Source of the DNA: Oopsacas minuta
Lineage: Eukaryota; Animalia; Porifera
Direction of reading: 5' to 3'
Assembly (NCBI GenBank): GCA_024704765.1
Contig: JAKMXF010000066.1
Location: 378,499 to 418,848, forward strand
Length of the DNA stretch: 40,350 nucleotides
Below the pieces are notes generated by a model. That model had not been told where the DNA came from and ran no database searches. It saw only the letters and a program-made list of their open reading frames with translations. A program made the translations under genes and the position numbers. Below, in pieces: positions 5,688 to 38,702 of the stretch. Position 1 is the first letter of the stretch. Each line of letters opens with the position of its first letter.

Positions 5688-6641
5688 TTATGATGTATCG
5701 GCTAATTTAACTGCCATTACACACCAATTCTCATGATCATAATAACTATCTATAACTCTAACTTCGCTTACAAATTTATCAACTAATTCTCTCAATTCAT
5801 TCTCCCTGAATACGTGATAATATCTCATAAATGTGTCGAATGAATCTCTTGTGTTTTCAAGTTGAGTTTGCTCCTTTTCTAACACCACGTTTTCTATTTC
5901 TTCAACTTTTTCCAATTCATTGATTATCTCTAGATCTTCTTTACAATTTGTTATTGAAATATTCTCTATTTCAAATGTAAAGTTATCTTCTCCAAACAAA
6001 TTATCTAAATTTGCTTCATAAACTATATCACCAGTTTTTACAACTTTGTTTTTCAGTTTCTTTTTGCGATATTTCTTCTTCTTAATCTTGTTTCCCTCTG
6101 TAGTCTCTGTGCTGGCCTTCTTCATACGCCATGGTACCAATACATCTTGTGTAGCAAACGTTCTCTTATCTTGTTCCATAGCCCATACATACACAAGCAT
6201 ACGTCCTCCTGGTATTAATACTCTAGCCATTTCCTTCAGAGCTTCTACTCGTCTCTCCTCGCTACTAAGGTGGTGTATCACTGCTATAGATATTACAGCA
6301 TCAAATGTATTACTGCTAAAAGGTAGATTGGTTGTATCTGCTTGGATTAGAAATGGACTGCTAGATTTCGCGAGTGTGAGCAAATTCACACATGTATCAC
6401 AACCTATCGTGATCCCGGTAGAATTAATATGCAGATACTTCCCATTGCCACAGCCTAGATCAGCTACGAGAGAATTGTGAGGTAAAGATTGTATGAAACT
6501 CTCTACCCTAGGCCATGGCTTGTAGCGTGTCATACTGAAGTGTGGAGCTATTGAATCGTATACTGACGTCACGTGTTCTGATTCAAGTTTGTTGGAATTA
6601 GCTATGTCTATTGATGTTATACTTGGCTTACAAAATGCCAT
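5688..6641 (-). CDS. Trm9/TRMT9B-like tRNA (mcm5U) methyltransferase, SAM-dependent
   Basis: VYDSIAPHFSMTRYKPWPRVESF...LVADLGCGNGKYL...FDAVISIAVIHHLSSEERRVEALKEMARVLIPGGRMLVYVWAMEQDKRTFATQDVLVPW and the C-terminus FMRYYHVFRENELRELV...HENWCVMAVK parallel human TRMT9B and the ALKBH8 methyltransferase domain. There is a Lys-rich insert (KKKKYRKKKLKNK). ATG at 6641. Confidence 0.85.
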   Translation of the reverse strand: MAFCKPSITSIDIANSNKLESEHVTSVYDSIAPHFSMTRYKPWPRVESFIQSLPHNSLVADLGCGNGKYLHINSTGITIGCDTCVNLLTLAKSSSPFLIQADTTNLPFSSNTFDAVISIAVIHHLSSEERRVEALKEMARVLIPGGRMLVYVWAMEQDKRTFATQDVLVPWRMKKASTETTEGNKIKKKKYRKKKLKNKVVKTGDIVYEANLDNLFGEDNFTFEIENISITNCKEDLEIINELEKVEEIENVVLEKEQTQLENTRDSFDTFMRYYHVFRENELRELVDKFVSEVRVIDSYYDHENWCVMAVKLADTS

Positions 6642-6815
6642 CCTATAGGAATCTGCTATACGTATAAGTTGATACTATCCGAGCGCGATATTTTGTGTCT
6701 GAAGAATTGAAGAATCCGGAGATTGGTGTTGGTGCCTTTCCCAAATAATAGCCTAAAATTGTCATTTTATTATGGGTGTACTACCTACTTGGAAATACAG
6801 GGAATTTTTCAAAAA

Positions 6816-6840
6816 CCCGGGATATAGCAATATCCCGGCA
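6816..6840. promoter_or_regulatory. Perfect palindrome cccgggatat-agca-atatcccgg in the divergent Trm9/NCBP2 promoter region
   Basis: 9-bp inverted arms seen directly in the sequence. It lies in the 370-bp gap between the two divergently oriented start codons (6641 and 7009). Confidence 0.3.
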
Positions 6841-7008
6841 AAATATCGTTAATATGTAATCTTTCAGTTACAAAAAGCAAAAACTATTCTATTATTTTGC
6901 TAAATTCAATATTTCTACTTGTAAATAATAATTTGATTGTTGCGATTGATTTTCAATTATAAATTATATTCCCTTCGATACTTCTATTATAATTGAACAT
7001 TTGTAAGT

Positions 7009-7236
7009 ATGGTTACTGTAGATCCAGCTGAAGTCTCAACAGATCCGAATAATGCGTATTTCGATAAAGCTACTCTTAAGAAACTTCCATTTGGGAGTCC
7101 TGATTGGGATGAGAAGGTACAGGAGCAGATAGCAGCTAAGAAGGGGAGTAATACTTTATACGTAGGGAACCTGTCCTTTCAGACTACAGAGGAACAGATA
7201 TTTGAGCTGTTCTCTCTAGCTGGAGAAGTCAAATTG
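7009..7236 (+). CDS. NCBP2: Nuclear cap-binding protein subunit 2 (CBP20), exon 1
   Basis: ...[30 protein letters not shown] matches human CBP20 ([30 protein letters not shown]). Donor TTG|gtaaca at 7236/7237. Confidence 0.9.
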
Positions 7237-36501: not shown

Positions 36502-37084
36502 TTCTAGGAGAAAAAGTGTATTCAAATAGACCAAACTTCTTATATAAGAAAGTGTATGCAAATCCTTGCTGCATTAAGCCTAAATGGTTCTGTATAAATC
36601 CTGTTAATGTTCAATATAGTAACTCTAGCTGGCTCGTTATAGCAATCTTAATGTGTATTATTTTAAGCTACACACATAATATTTATGACCTAAGACGGAT
36701 TGTAAATTGTAATCTTTATGAAAGGAGAGATTTATTATTGTAACAACCTTGCTTATTTAGGGACATATGTTAGATCACGTGTTTTGTTTAGCATTAATCA
36801 AATAGCATTGCATGTAGTATATTACCTCATATTTGGGACGTACATAATTAAACGCTCATTATCTGTTACAAGACTTTTACATATTTATGGCAGTGTTGAT
36901 ATTGCAAAATTCTTTCACCACATGGGATTTCTGTAGACACATTCATTCATTCAATGGGATTTTATTTAAATATTCCTAATATATTAATTATCAAATTTCT
37001 TCTTTTTTTGAAAAAAATTTGCAAATGTTGTTTAGCATTAATGAAATAATTGAGTTACTGTAACTACAATAGCAAACAGCTGTA

Positions 37085-38095
37085 ATGTCCAAAACATACT
37101 ATCAACTGCTATACAACACTGCTAATGCTCAGAAAGTTCTACCCAAATCTCTTGCTAACACATTCCTTTCTGAGCAGTTAGAAGGAATTGGTAGTAAGAA
37201 CGCGCTTGCTGGCGCTGGCGATTTTAAAACCTCAGCTAAAGACGCTGCTATTCTACATCATAAGGTAGAACATTATGCTAAAGAGGCTCTTGGAAATCTT
37301 AACCAATTGCAGAGCAGACAAATTGGAGTTAGGAGAATGTTCGATAAACATAACCAAATACTTGAAAATGAAAAGGAAGAACTTTTGAATTTGAAACCAC
37401 AGACTGTTACACGTGGTGGCATGAGGACATCTCAGACAGGATTCAGTAGCAGATCGTCTAGCGCTGAGAGGAGAAGAACCACATCGGGAAGAGAAGAGAA
37501 TCTTAGGAGTGAATCTAGATGTGCTTTTGGAATAGACTTGAGCCAGTACTTAGTCTCAACTGTGGTGAAGAAAAAGAAAGTAGAAGAACAGCTAAAACGA
37601 GATTCTCTGCTCACTCAGAGTAGAAGTGGCTTGACTGGCTCAAAAAGTAAACTCATGAGTCCCTCTAAAGTTAATGTATTCTCTGGGGTTGGAGCAGGAA
37701 CTATACAAGTTGATGATCCAAAGAAAAAGGCTCAAGAGGCTCGACAGAAGAAAGTCGATGGCTTTCTGAAATTACTGGATCAGCCTTTTATACAGATGGA
37801 TCTAGGTCTTAAAGGACCTGCTGCATTCAATGAATTCTATTCTCTCTCCCTTGACAATCTTGTGGTAGAAGAACAGCAGTACACGAACCTGTTAAGCGAG
37901 CTTAAATCTATTCCAGAGAACGATGAACTAGCAAAGAACTTCAATCAGCGTAGTACCGAACGCAGGACTGAGAGGAAATATGCCAGTCAGCTCGAGATAG
38001 AATTTGATAAGATTAAAAACACTCGATATATTAGAGATTTCCATCCCTTCCAGAAGGAAGGAGGGCCGGATACAAATAGTGAAGAGTTCATGTGA
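37085..38095 (+). CDS. Intronless ORF (336 aa) for a Ser/Arg/Lys-rich, partly coiled-coil protein of unknown family
   Basis: ATG-initiated 1-kb ORF, divergent from the PARP4-like gene across a ~580-bp shared upstream region. Basic, S-rich middle (SSRSSSAERRRTTSGREENLRSESR). No domain recognised. Confidence 0.55.
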   Translation: MSKTYYQLLYNTANAQKVLPKSLANTFLSEQLEGIGSKNALAGAGDFKTSAKDAAILHHKVEHYAKEALGNLNQLQSRQIGVRRMFDKHNQILENEKEELLNLKPQTVTRGGMRTSQTGFSSRSSSAERRRTTSGREENLRSESRCAFGIDLSQYLVSTVVKKKKVEEQLKRDSLLTQSRSGLTGSKSKLMSPSKVNVFSGVGAGTIQVDDPKKKAQEARQKKVDGFLKLLDQPFIQMDLGLKGPAAFNEFYSLSLDNLVVEEQQYTNLLSELKSIPENDELAKNFNQRSTERRTERKYASQLEIEFDKIKNTRYIRDFHPFQKEGGPDTNSEEFM

Positions 38096-38564
38096 ATTTC
38101 TAAATATCTCGTATTGTTAGAATTTTTTATATTATTACTGTTTCTACATTAATATCACTTCACTTTTAATGTAATACATTGTAATTCATATTATTGTAAA
38201 CTGTGTCTTTCTGTAGTTTAAGGGACTGTTGGTTAGAAAATTGTTTCAGCTCAATCGCCCCCATCAAGTTTACCTGCCGCATGAATATTGAAATTTAACT
38301 ACACAACATATTTACTATTAACTACTTGTAGTAATTTTACTGATTATCTTGACATTCCTTTACCTCGCGTAATTATCATATTTTGAAGTAGAGTTAATGA
38401 TAATGAAATCGAACTTCCACCCGCCCGCATGCTTAGATGAACATCATGTGGAGCTGAAACAAGTTCCTCATTAATAGGAGGCTTACTATTAAATAGGAAA
38501 TTATTTGTTGATATTATTATATCTCATGTGATAATTCTGTATTACTGCAATTGCCTTAGCTTTC

Positions 38565-38702
38565 ATGTCTAGGTCGAGTAACATATATGGTTTGACTTAT
38601 AATGAGCTATGCAGACATTTTGATAATGATTTGTTACTCAACTTACCGAAAACAAAATTACCAATCCGTACATCTGCAGGTAGAGAAGAACAAATACAGG
38701 AA
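38565..38702 (+). CDS. IARS2: Mitochondrial isoleucyl-tRNA synthetase, exon 1
   Basis: MSRSSNIYGLTYNELCRHFDNDLLLNLPKTKLPIRTSAGREEQIQE parallels human ..[30 protein letters not shown]. Donor GAA|gtatgt. A ccttag lies 6 nt upstream of the ATG. Confidence 0.75.

What the first reader, a model, noticed from the sequence alone, without database searches (positions are those of the whole stretch)
6620..38570. An acceptor-like AG sits immediately 5' of the start codon in many genes, consistent with spliced-leader trans-splicing and outrons
PIGA has tataagctctatag-a-ATG (8257). NCBP2 has tttgtaag-t-ATG (7006). Trm9 has ttcctatag-g-ATG on the minus strand (about 6643). The PARP4-like gene has cactttttctcctag-aa-ATG on the minus strand (about 36504). 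The nested small ORF has gctcgatag-ATG (about 9135). IARS2 has tgccttag-ctttc-ATG (38559). Family member 4 has ctttcctacag at -45. A Py-tract-AG 0-9 nt before the ATG in at least 6 of about 14 genes is far more than chance would give, and it is the hallmark of SL trans-spliced genomes. It would also explain the very short intergenic distances.
Basis: seen in the sequence. Interest (0 to 1): 0.6.

Follow-up and report, generated by a model that had tools for sequence, protein, structure and literature searches.

The report
Conserved acceptor AGs before start codons
In this stretch of the glass sponge Oopsacas minuta, most genes have a splice-acceptor-like (T)AG a few bases before the start codon, kept in place across distant glass sponges; it is best explained by the spliced-leader trans-splicing already reported for this sponge class, so the pattern is real but not new.

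Summary
The window comes from the hexactinellid sponge Oopsacas minuta: four ORFs or gene models here are 100% identical to its annotated proteins.

An AG 0-9 nt upstream occurs at 39% of random non-coding ATGs and 52% of all ATGs, so 6 of 14 is what chance gives.

The pattern is still real under better tests:
- With 13 curated start codons, 10 have an AG within 9 nt (p=0.006) and 6 within 2 nt (p=0.003).
- Six have an acceptor-grade site within 20 nt, scored with a matrix from 68 local cis acceptors, against a null of 9.6% (p=8e-4).
- In orthologous loci from five to six other glass-sponge assemblies the upstream DNA is unalignable, yet AG is shared at identical ATG-anchored offsets 27 times against 5.2 expected. 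Other dinucleotides, apart from the TA of TAG and a small GC excess, are near expectation.

Spliced-leader (SL) trans-splicing is published for hexactinellids, so SL acceptors at the ends of outrons are the best explanation. This is inferred: I could reach no transcript and found no SL RNA gene.

The operon idea is untested.

The parts
6643..6657 (-). Trm9 start region. Proximal TAG has its AG at 6644-6643, 1 nt before ATG 6641. A distal TAG has its AG at 6657-6656, 14 nt before the ATG.
   Evidence: The proximal AG sits at offset 1 in all five lineages, and a distal YAG at offsets 10-14 in all of them, while the flanks differ.
7006..7007 (+). NCBP2: AG 1 nt before ATG 7009. In this species the site is AAG, which is weak.
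   Evidence: AG sits at offset 1 in 4 of 5 lineages, and is TAG in L004 and L005. The gene model is 100% identical to the annotated O. minuta NCBP2.
8244..8258 (+). PIGA: ...gctctatag, AG at 8257-8258, 1 nt before ATG 8260.
   Evidence: In the orthologues the ATG lies 4 codons further upstream, and an AG 1-3 nt before it has moved with it.
9135..9143 (-). Nested 89-aa ORF inside PIGA intron 1: gctcgatag abuts ATG 9134.
   Evidence: The motif reads tagATG or tag-g-ATG in all 4 lineages.
2992..3002 (+). DNA polymerase eta: TAG at 2992-2994, 10 nt before ATG 3005, and AAG at 3000-3002, 2 nt before it.
   Evidence: A (t)tag at offsets 8-10 plus a gag at 0-1 occurs in the orthologues. The ORF equals annotated protein KAI6659071.1.
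10994..11008 (-). Nested 218-aa ORF: tatatctgtag, AG at 10995-10994, 13 nt before ATG 10980. This is the strongest acceptor score in the set (5.1).
   Evidence: The tctgtag motif is conserved at offsets 10-14 in L002 and L003. The ORF equals annotated LOD99_14751.
12442..12462 (-). Nested 269-aa ORF: cgtttatag, AG at 12455-12454, 18 nt before ATG 12435, and attag, AG at 12443-12442, 6 nt before it.
   Evidence: A pyrimidine-rich ..cttag sits at offset 15 in L002 and L003.
17007..17008 (-). ZnT (cation-efflux) gene: CAG 11 nt before ATG 16995. This is a weak site.
   Evidence: AG sits at offsets 8-12 in L003 and L004.
37071..37079 (+). orf37085: CAG with its AG at 37078-37079, 5 nt before ATG 37085, and TAG 12 nt before it.
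   Evidence: AG sits at exactly offset 5 in all five lineages. The ORF equals annotated LOD99_14757.
38553..38559 (+). IARS2: gccttag, AG at 38558-38559, 5 nt before ATG 38565.
   Evidence: A TAG is present in all lineages, but at variable offsets of 4-15 nt.
36504..36546 (-). PARP4-like gene: ctcctag, AG at 36505-36504, 2 nt before ATG 36501, with a TATATAAG box at about 36546-36539. This is probably an ordinary TATA promoter with a 5'UTR of about 16 nt, not an outron acceptor.
   Evidence: The AG is absent in L006 and of poor type or position in L007-L009. A TATA box starting 33 to 45 nt upstream of the ATG is present in all five lineages.
29940..29950 (-). Family member 4: ctttcctacag 45 nt before the first in-frame ATG, 29894. 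Its status is unknown and the start codon is uncertain.

Best explanation
The window is nuclear DNA of the glass sponge Oopsacas minuta. In most of its genes the start codon is preceded within about 0-18 nt by a 3' splice-acceptor-like (T)AG. The most likely mechanism runs as follows. Each pre-mRNA starts somewhere upstream. The upstream piece (the outron) is removed, and a capped spliced leader of about 37-44 nt from a separate SL RNA is joined at this AG. The mature 5'UTR is then essentially the leader plus 0-18 nt, and the first AUG after the junction is the start codon.

Shown here: the AGs exist, they are enriched near start codons, they resemble local cis acceptors, and they are held in position relative to the ATG across distant glass sponges.

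Inferred from the literature on the class: that the partner in splicing is an SL RNA rather than an upstream 5'UTR exon.

Not every gene follows this. PARP4-like more likely uses a TATA promoter with a very short unspliced leader.
For: Organism.
- The Trm9-like ORF, the NCBP2 model, Pol eta, LOD99_14751 and LOD99_14757 are 100% identical to O. minuta proteins.

Enrichment in the window.
- for example, an acceptor-grade matrix score within 20 nt in 6 of 13 starts against a null of 0.096, p=8e-4.

Likeness to cis acceptors.
- 68 cis acceptors defined by exon orthology are 75% TAG and 25% CAG, never RAG.
- YAGs within 20 nt of starts are 76% TAG, against 64% for random non-coding YAGs.
- Their pyrimidine-tract score exceeds that of random YAGs (p=0.001).

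Conservation.
- Nine orthologous loci from other glass-sponge assemblies show conserved synteny.
- Over 47 lineage pairs, AG is shared at identical ATG-anchored offsets 27 times against 5.2 expected (z=9.2, 0 of 2000 resamplings reach it). TA is shared 23 times against 8.2.
- Of the remaining dinucleotides only GC shows a small excess (5 vs 1.3); the rest are at expectation. Overall identity is 31% against a null of 26%.
- Using one most-distant pair per gene, AG lies at the same offset within 1 nt in 8 of 11 genes (null 2.8, P=6e-4). YAG lies within 3 nt in 9 of 11 (null 1.6, P<2e-4).

Arguments against a fixed translational context.
- Where the ATG has moved (PIGA), the AG has moved with it.
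- Where the distance varies (IARS2, the nested 218-aa and 269-aa ORFs), the TAG with its pyrimidine tract is what is kept.

Space constraint.
- The divergent Trm9 and NCBP2 start codons are only 159-171 nt apart in two species. Both carry the AG, which leaves little room for two non-coding first exons plus two introns.

Literature.
- SL trans-splicing is reported in hexactinellids.
Against: - No transcript, EST or SL sequence could be examined. O. minuta proteins are not on record in the contig index, and no transcript-derived members were found.
- No SL RNA gene is in the window. Rfam finds only tRNA-Asp, and the only dispersed conserved repeats are transposon-like MITEs.
- The pyrimidine tracts of start-proximal YAGs are clearly weaker than those of cis acceptors (p=3e-7; the cis set was the training set).
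- Several proximal AGs are RAG: NCBP2 in this species, and the Pol eta gag sites.
- In A. vastus only 4% of long reads carried a leader.
- PARP4 shows that very short conventional 5'UTRs may exist here.
- The sample is only 11-13 genes from one locus.
Confidence: 0.6

Rival explanations
1. The AGs are acceptors of ordinary cis-spliced 5'UTR introns. A short non-coding first exon lies upstream of each gene and is spliced to a site just before the ATG.
For: - Everything that shows the AGs are acceptor-like and conserved fits this reading equally well.
- In the 159-nt L004 spacer my reading of the sequence finds a CAA|GTAGAA donor-like site about 95 nt upstream of the Trm9 AG. The shortest cis intron seen here is about 97 nt (PIGA exon 2 to exon 3).
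Against: - This would require such introns in roughly 80% of the genes, including both members of divergent pairs whose ATGs are only 159-171 nt apart.
- No conserved upstream exon or donor block is detectable. Outside coding exons, blastn conservation upstream of starts is nil, except in the closest species.
- SL trans-splicing is documented for the class.
Confidence: 0.17
2. The conserved (T)AG is not a splice site. It is part of an initiator, core-promoter or translation-initiation context, with transcription starting a few nucleotides before the ATG and therefore very short 5'UTRs.
For: - PARP4-like has a TATA box starting 33 to 45 nt upstream of the ATG in all five lineages, and an A-C-T-T-T motif about 16 nt upstream of the ATG in the window and in L006. 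Together these predict a 5'UTR of about 16 nt.
- AG at positions -3 and -2 overlaps the Kozak -3 purine position.
- Start-proximal tracts are weaker than cis-acceptor tracts.
Against: - The offsets vary from 0 to 18 nt between genes, and between orthologues of one gene (IARS2 4-15; nested 218-aa ORF 10-14).
- A purine at -3 occurs in only 8 of 13 starts, by my count of the contexts.
- The TAG to CAG ratio matches that of cis acceptors.
- No TATA box is conserved at a fixed distance upstream of Trm9, the nested 89-aa ORF or NCBP2.
- 5'UTRs of 0-5 nt in most genes would be incompatible with scanning initiation. This is established knowledge, not tested here.
Confidence: 0.15
3. The pattern is chance or base composition. 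AG is common, and an AT-rich upstream region produces TAGs near any ATG.
Against: - There is enrichment against a non-coding null.
- Across lineages the positional conservation is concentrated on AG and the TA of TAG, and is far beyond resampled expectation.
Confidence: 0.03

Closest known systems
SL trans-splicing in hexactinellid sponges (Douris, Telford & Averof 2010, Mol Biol Evol 27:684, as cited; roughly 37-nt leader in Aphrocallistes vastus, PMC10282587)
   Same: It is the same animal class. It predicts exactly what is seen: acceptors upstream of start codons with no matching upstream exon. The nested genes common in A. vastus (12.4%) are also seen here.
   Different: Those reports rest on transcripts. 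Here only genomic acceptor signatures and their conservation are seen. The O. minuta genome paper (PMC10280926) does not mention trans-splicing. I could not retrieve the leader sequence. How close the acceptors lie to the AUG, and whether they are conserved across genera, is not described in the texts I could read.
Nematode SL1 trans-splicing of outrons (Caenorhabditis elegans)
   Same: The acceptor uses the same consensus as cis introns and usually lies very close to the AUG, so the mature 5'UTR is mostly the leader. This rests on established knowledge and was not tested here.
   Different: The lineage and leader are unrelated. The nematode SL RNA families in Rfam do not match the window. A dedicated SL2-plus-operon system is known in nematodes but not in sponges.
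Ctenophore SL trans-splicing (Hormiphora californensis, PMC8527503)
   Same: It is a non-bilaterian animal with a compact genome and many nested intronic genes. The leader is 35-48 nt and is found on at least 56% of full-length reads.
   Different: The leader sequence differs between phyla. Hundreds of dispersed leader loci are seen in the ctenophore genome. No leader locus was recognisable in the roughly 210 kb of glass-sponge DNA held here.
Operons resolved by SL trans-splicing (nematodes, tunicates)
   Same: There is a run of seven same-strand genes, from ZnT to PARP4, with gaps of 161-491 nt. There is also a conserved NCBP2-to-PIGA tandem pair with a gap of 164-283 nt.
   Different: There is no evidence of polycistronic transcripts. 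The gaps are larger than in known operons. Two tight pairs are divergent. Operons have not been reported for hexactinellids.

Membership tests
SL trans-spliced genes (outron acceptors) | A common leader, not encoded upstream, is present at the 5' end of mRNAs from many genes and joined at the AG | not testable with these tools
   No transcript data were reachable. O. minuta proteins are absent from the contig index. No transcript-derived cluster members exist for Trm9 or NCBP2.
SL trans-spliced genes (outron acceptors) | An SL RNA gene exists: leader exon, GU donor and Sm-binding site | tested here: inconclusive
   There is none in the window. Rfam at gathering threshold finds only tRNA-Asp. 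The dispersed conserved repeats are MITEs. The sponge leader is not an Rfam family, and the rest of the genome could not be searched.
SL trans-spliced genes (outron acceptors) | A 3' splice-acceptor signal (pyrimidine tract followed by YAG) lies shortly upstream of the start codon | tested here: met
   An acceptor-grade score within 20 nt is found in 6 of 13 window starts and 23 of 49 starts over all species, against a null of about 0.10. The TAG to CAG ratio equals that of cis acceptors, and the tract score exceeds that of random YAGs. The tracts are weaker than in cis acceptors.
SL trans-spliced genes (outron acceptors) | The acceptor is under selection, that is, conserved while the outron diverges | tested here: met
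   AG is shared 27 times against 5.2 expected, and 8 of 11 genes share it at the same offset within 1 nt.
SL trans-spliced genes (outron acceptors) | The organism belongs to a lineage in which SL trans-splicing is demonstrated | tested here: met
   The organism is O. minuta, class Hexactinellida. Literature.
SL trans-spliced genes (outron acceptors) | No cis donor or first exon upstream pairs with the acceptor | tested here: inconclusive
   No conserved upstream block was found, and the spacers are very short. However, a donor-like GTAGAA exists in the L004 spacer.
SL-resolved operons | A polycistronic pre-mRNA covers closely spaced same-strand genes, with downstream genes trans-spliced | not testable with these tools
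   Only the spacing is known: gaps of 161-491 nt on the minus-strand run and 283 nt from NCBP2 to PIGA.
Kozak-type initiation context | Conserved bases sit at fixed positions relative to the AUG, with a dominant purine at -3 | tested here: not met
   The AG offset ranges from 0 to 18 nt and varies between orthologues. A purine at -3 occurs in 8 of 13 starts.

The most novel reading that the evidence does not exclude
Nearly all glass-sponge genes, not just a few percent, are SL trans-spliced at acceptors 0-18 nt from the AUG. The same-strand clusters here (ZnT, the CTD-repeat gene, four actin/MVP-ID paralogues and PARP4; also NCBP2 to PIGA) are transcribed polycistronically and resolved by the leader. 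These would be the first operons in sponges.
Probability: 0.1. Interest if true: 0.6.

Novelty: already known. Interest (0 to 1): 0.3.

Why it matters
SL trans-splicing in hexactinellid sponges has been published since 2010 and again in 2023, so the phenomenon is not new.

What this analysis adds is modest.
- From genomic sequence alone, acceptor-like TAGs next to start codons are positionally conserved across several glass-sponge genera, in about 9 of 11 genes at one locus.
- If RNA data confirm this, trans-splicing is pervasive in the class rather than marginal. Only 4% of reads carried a leader in A. vastus.

It also has practical value for annotation. The first ATG after such an AG marks the start codon. 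Two small nested genes conserved across glass sponges, the 89-aa and 269-aa ORFs, are not in the protein collection under these exact sequences and so may be unannotated.

Tried and rejected
Looking for transcripts.
- I tried look-up of encoding contigs with four O. minuta ORFs or proteins. None is on record.
- The NCBP2 homologue search was run with too strict an E-value cut-off and returned only the O. minuta protein itself. It confirmed the gene model but gave no transcripts.

Looking for the leader sequence in the literature.
- Douris 2010 and Derelle 2010 are not held.
- The A. vastus supplement showing the leader is not held.
- Other searches gave only citations.

Branch-point motif.
- Pentamer enrichment upstream of cis acceptors returned only AT-rich words, so no usable branch-point test was possible.

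Candidate SL RNA genes.
- Short repeats conserved between species at non-orthologous places (window 8088-8150 and 31540-31590) turned out to be ends of a MITE with terminal inverted repeats.

A supposed gene start.
- I searched for a missing first exon of a supposed gene at 1318-2418. This is better explained as the last exon of the NBR1-like gene.

Extra genes from the loci.
- RARS, an ALKBH-like gene and the NBR1 PB1 exon gave uncertain start codons, so I left them out of the statistics.
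Full report
Identity of the window. The sequence is eukaryotic, about 36% G+C, with GT-AG introns. Several ORFs or models are 100% identical to Oopsacas minuta proteins:
- the intronless Trm9-like ORF at 5688-6641(-), matching 'hypothetical protein LOD99_14748';
- my three-exon NCBP2 model (7009-7236, 7435-7629, 7752-7976), matching the annotated NCBP2;
- the Pol eta ORF, the nested 218-aa ORF (LOD99_14751) and orf37085 (LOD99_14757), each an exact match to an annotated protein.
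O. minuta is a hexactinellid (glass) sponge.

Gene content. From left to right the window holds:
- the last exons of an NBR1-like gene, up to 2418;
- Pol eta, 3005-5080 (+);
- Trm9-like, 5688-6641 (-);
- NCBP2, 7009-7976 (+);
- PIGA, four exons over 8260-13900 (+). Its introns carry three opposite-strand ORFs of 89, 218 and 269 aa, and a tRNA-Asp;
- a ZnT cation-efflux gene, 16995-16480 plus 16117-14381 (-);
- a gene made of Rpb1-CTD-like heptad repeats (-);
- four tandem paralogues with an actin-like N-terminus and a PARP4 MVP-interaction C-terminus (-);
- a PARP4-like gene, 36501-30500 (-);
- orf37085 (+);
- IARS2, from 38565 (+).
Gaps between neighbouring genes are 161-607 nt.

The observation. 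The statistical argument is not valid. An AG lies 0-9 nt upstream of 52% of all non-start ATGs in the window and related loci, and of 39% of ATGs lying in non-coding sequence of the window. So '6 of about 14' is what chance gives.

I redefined the start codons from orthology and annotation. This removed three pseudo-starts and set aside the ambiguous family and CTD-repeat starts, leaving 13. Against the non-coding null:
- 10 of 13 have an AG within 9 nt (p=0.006);
- 9 of 13 within 5 nt (p=6e-4);
- 6 of 13 within 2 nt (p=0.003).

Are they acceptor-like? I collected 68 cis acceptors. Their positions are fixed by exon-level protein conservation between this window and orthologous loci.
- They are T-rich followed by TAG (51) or CAG (17), never RAG, and the next base is G in 54 of 68.
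- With a weight matrix built from them, an AG scoring at or above the cis 25th percentile lies within 20 nt of 6 of 13 window starts, and of 23 of 49 starts over all species. The null is about 0.10 (p=8e-4).
- YAGs within 20 nt of starts are 76% TAG. Cis acceptors are 75% TAG and random non-coding YAGs 64%.
- The pyrimidine-tract scores of these YAGs exceed those of random YAGs (p=0.001) but fall clearly below those of cis acceptors (p=3e-7). The cis set was the training set, so its advantage is inflated.

Comparative evidence. Using the Trm9 and PARP4 orthologues, I fetched nine loci from six ENA assemblies. I take them to be other glass sponges, for two reasons: gene order, including the nested ORFs and the tRNA, matches the window, and protein identities run from 50% to 90%.

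Upstream of the shared start codons the DNA is essentially unalignable. Ungapped identity is 31% against a null of 26%. Yet the AG is kept:
- Trm9 has AG 1 nt before the ATG in all five lineages, and a second YAG at 10-14 nt.
- The 89-aa ORF reads tagATG or tag-g-ATG in all four.
- NCBP2 has AG at offset 1 in four of five.
- orf37085 has AG at exactly offset 5 in all five.
- In PIGA the ATG has moved four codons, and an AG 1-3 nt before it has moved with it.
- The 218-aa and 269-aa ORFs and IARS2 keep a pyrimidine-rich TAG at variable distances of 4-18 nt.

Over 47 lineage pairs, AG is shared at identical ATG-anchored offsets 27 times against 5.2 expected (z=9.2; none of 2000 resamplings reached it). 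TA, the first two bases of TAG, is shared 23 times against 8.2. GC shows a small excess (5 against 1.3), and the remaining dinucleotides are at expectation. With a single most-distant pair per gene, AG lies at the same offset within 1 nt in 8 of 11 genes (null 2.8, P=6e-4). YAG lies within 3 nt in 9 of 11 (null 1.6, P<2e-4). The feature is therefore real and under selection.

Mechanism. A conserved acceptor just upstream of the AUG needs a splicing partner. The literature held here states the following:
- SL trans-splicing occurs in hexactinellid sponges (Douris et al. 2010, cited in PMC7986045 and PMC5619915).
- Long cDNA reads of Aphrocallistes vastus carry a trans-spliced leader of about 37 nt, although on only 4% of reads (PMC10282587).
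- The O. minuta genome paper does not mention trans-splicing.
The simplest account is that these AGs are SL acceptors at the ends of outrons. The mature 5'UTR would then be the leader plus 0-18 nt. The divergent Trm9 and NCBP2 start codons are only 159-171 nt apart in two species, and both carry the AG. That is hard to fit with two non-coding first exons plus two introns, because the shortest cis intron seen here is about 97 nt. Variable offsets within and between genes argue against a Kozak-type context. I put this explanation at about 0.6, because the leader itself was never seen.

Exceptions and cautions.
It is absent in L006 and of poor type in L007 and L009.
- All five lineages instead keep a TATA box starting 33 to 45 nt upstream of the ATG. 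The window and L006 share an ACTTT motif about 16 nt upstream. This predicts a conventional promoter with a 5'UTR of about 16 nt, so the pyrimidine run would be the UTR itself.
- The NCBP2 site in O. minuta is AAG, and the proximal Pol eta sites are GAG. Neither type occurs among the 68 cis acceptors.
- The family-member-4 site at -45 cannot be judged, because that start codon is uncertain.
- Cis 5'UTR introns cannot be excluded. A GTAGAA donor-like site lies about 95 nt upstream of the Trm9 AG in L004.

Operons.
- Two of the tight pairs are divergent: Trm9/NCBP2 and PARP4/orf37085.
- The same-strand gaps of 161-491 nt are larger than in known operons.
- The genome-wide mean intergenic distance reported for O. 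minuta is 2 kb.
- No operons are reported for hexactinellids.

What could not be done. No transcript resource for O. minuta or any glass sponge was reachable. The published leader sequences were not in the held texts. The window contains no recognisable SL RNA gene.

Verdict. This is a real, conserved genomic signature whose most likely meaning, SL trans-splice acceptors, is already known biology for this sponge class.

Noticed in passing
window 8479-9472 and 10128-13351 (PIGA introns 1 and 3): Three opposite-strand ORFs are nested in PIGA introns: 89 aa at 8865-9134, 218 aa at 10324-10980 and 269 aa at 11626-12435. The last two are paralogues. A tRNA-Asp at 13191-13263 is nested there too. 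All are conserved in the same introns in other glass sponges. The exact 89-aa and 269-aa sequences are not in the protein collection, so they may be unannotated in O. minuta. None has a Pfam match.
   Followed up: partly
window 19323-30008 (-): Four tandem paralogues lie directly downstream of the PARP4-like gene. Each has an actin-like N-terminal segment, a divergent low-complexity middle and a C-terminus of about 140 aa that is nearly identical among the copies. Pfam labels the orthologues' C-terminus PARP4_MVP-ID. The near-identity of only the C-terminus suggests gene conversion. Members 1 and 3 lack the ATG used by member 2.
   Followed up: partly
window 17465-19093 (-), tandem repeat 18222-18899: An ORF made of about 32 copies of a 21-nt unit encodes Rpb1-CTD-like heptads (Pfam RNA_pol_Rpb1_R, E=3.7e-28), but it is not RPB1. 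It is conserved in position in L003 and L004. The start codon is unresolved.
   Followed up: no
window 7650-7712, 8088-8150, 31500-31590; L003 7683-7743, 7805-7853, 9198-9256, 9477-9521; L001 2817-2876: A short transposon-like (MITE) family has terminal inverted repeats of the form TACAGTCAACTC...TATATCGAA. Copies are about 80-84% similar between different glass-sponge genera and sit at non-orthologous sites in introns and spacers.
   Followed up: partly
window 36539-36546 (-) and L006-L009 upstream of PARP4: A TATA box starting 33 to 45 nt before the PARP4-like ATG is conserved in all five lineages. It implies a very short conventional 5'UTR of about 16 nt.
   Followed up: partly
L006-L009 (about 1-8500) compared with window 38565-40350: In the other glass sponges, IARS2 exon 1 lies next to orf37085. 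Further tRNA-synt_1 exons lie beyond a complete RARS gene and an ALKBH-like gene. These two genes therefore appear to be nested in an IARS2 intron. The window ends before this could be checked in O. minuta.
   Followed up: no
window 40169-40348: A perfect tandem repeat, 25.7 copies of TCTATAT, lies inside an IARS2 intron at the window edge. There are also (ATA)n at 30669-30727 and (TAG)n at 32182-32222 within the PARP4-like gene region.
   Followed up: no
window 359-1317 and 1318-2418: The 1318-2418 ORF begins exactly at a conserved cis acceptor, whose TAG is an in-frame stop. It carries a weak UBA_NBR1_C match, so it is the terminal exon of the NBR1-like gene whose N_BRCA1_IG exon is at 2 to about 310. 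The prokaryote-style gene calls in the ENA assemblies start it at an internal ATG that corresponds to window 1537.
   Followed up: partly
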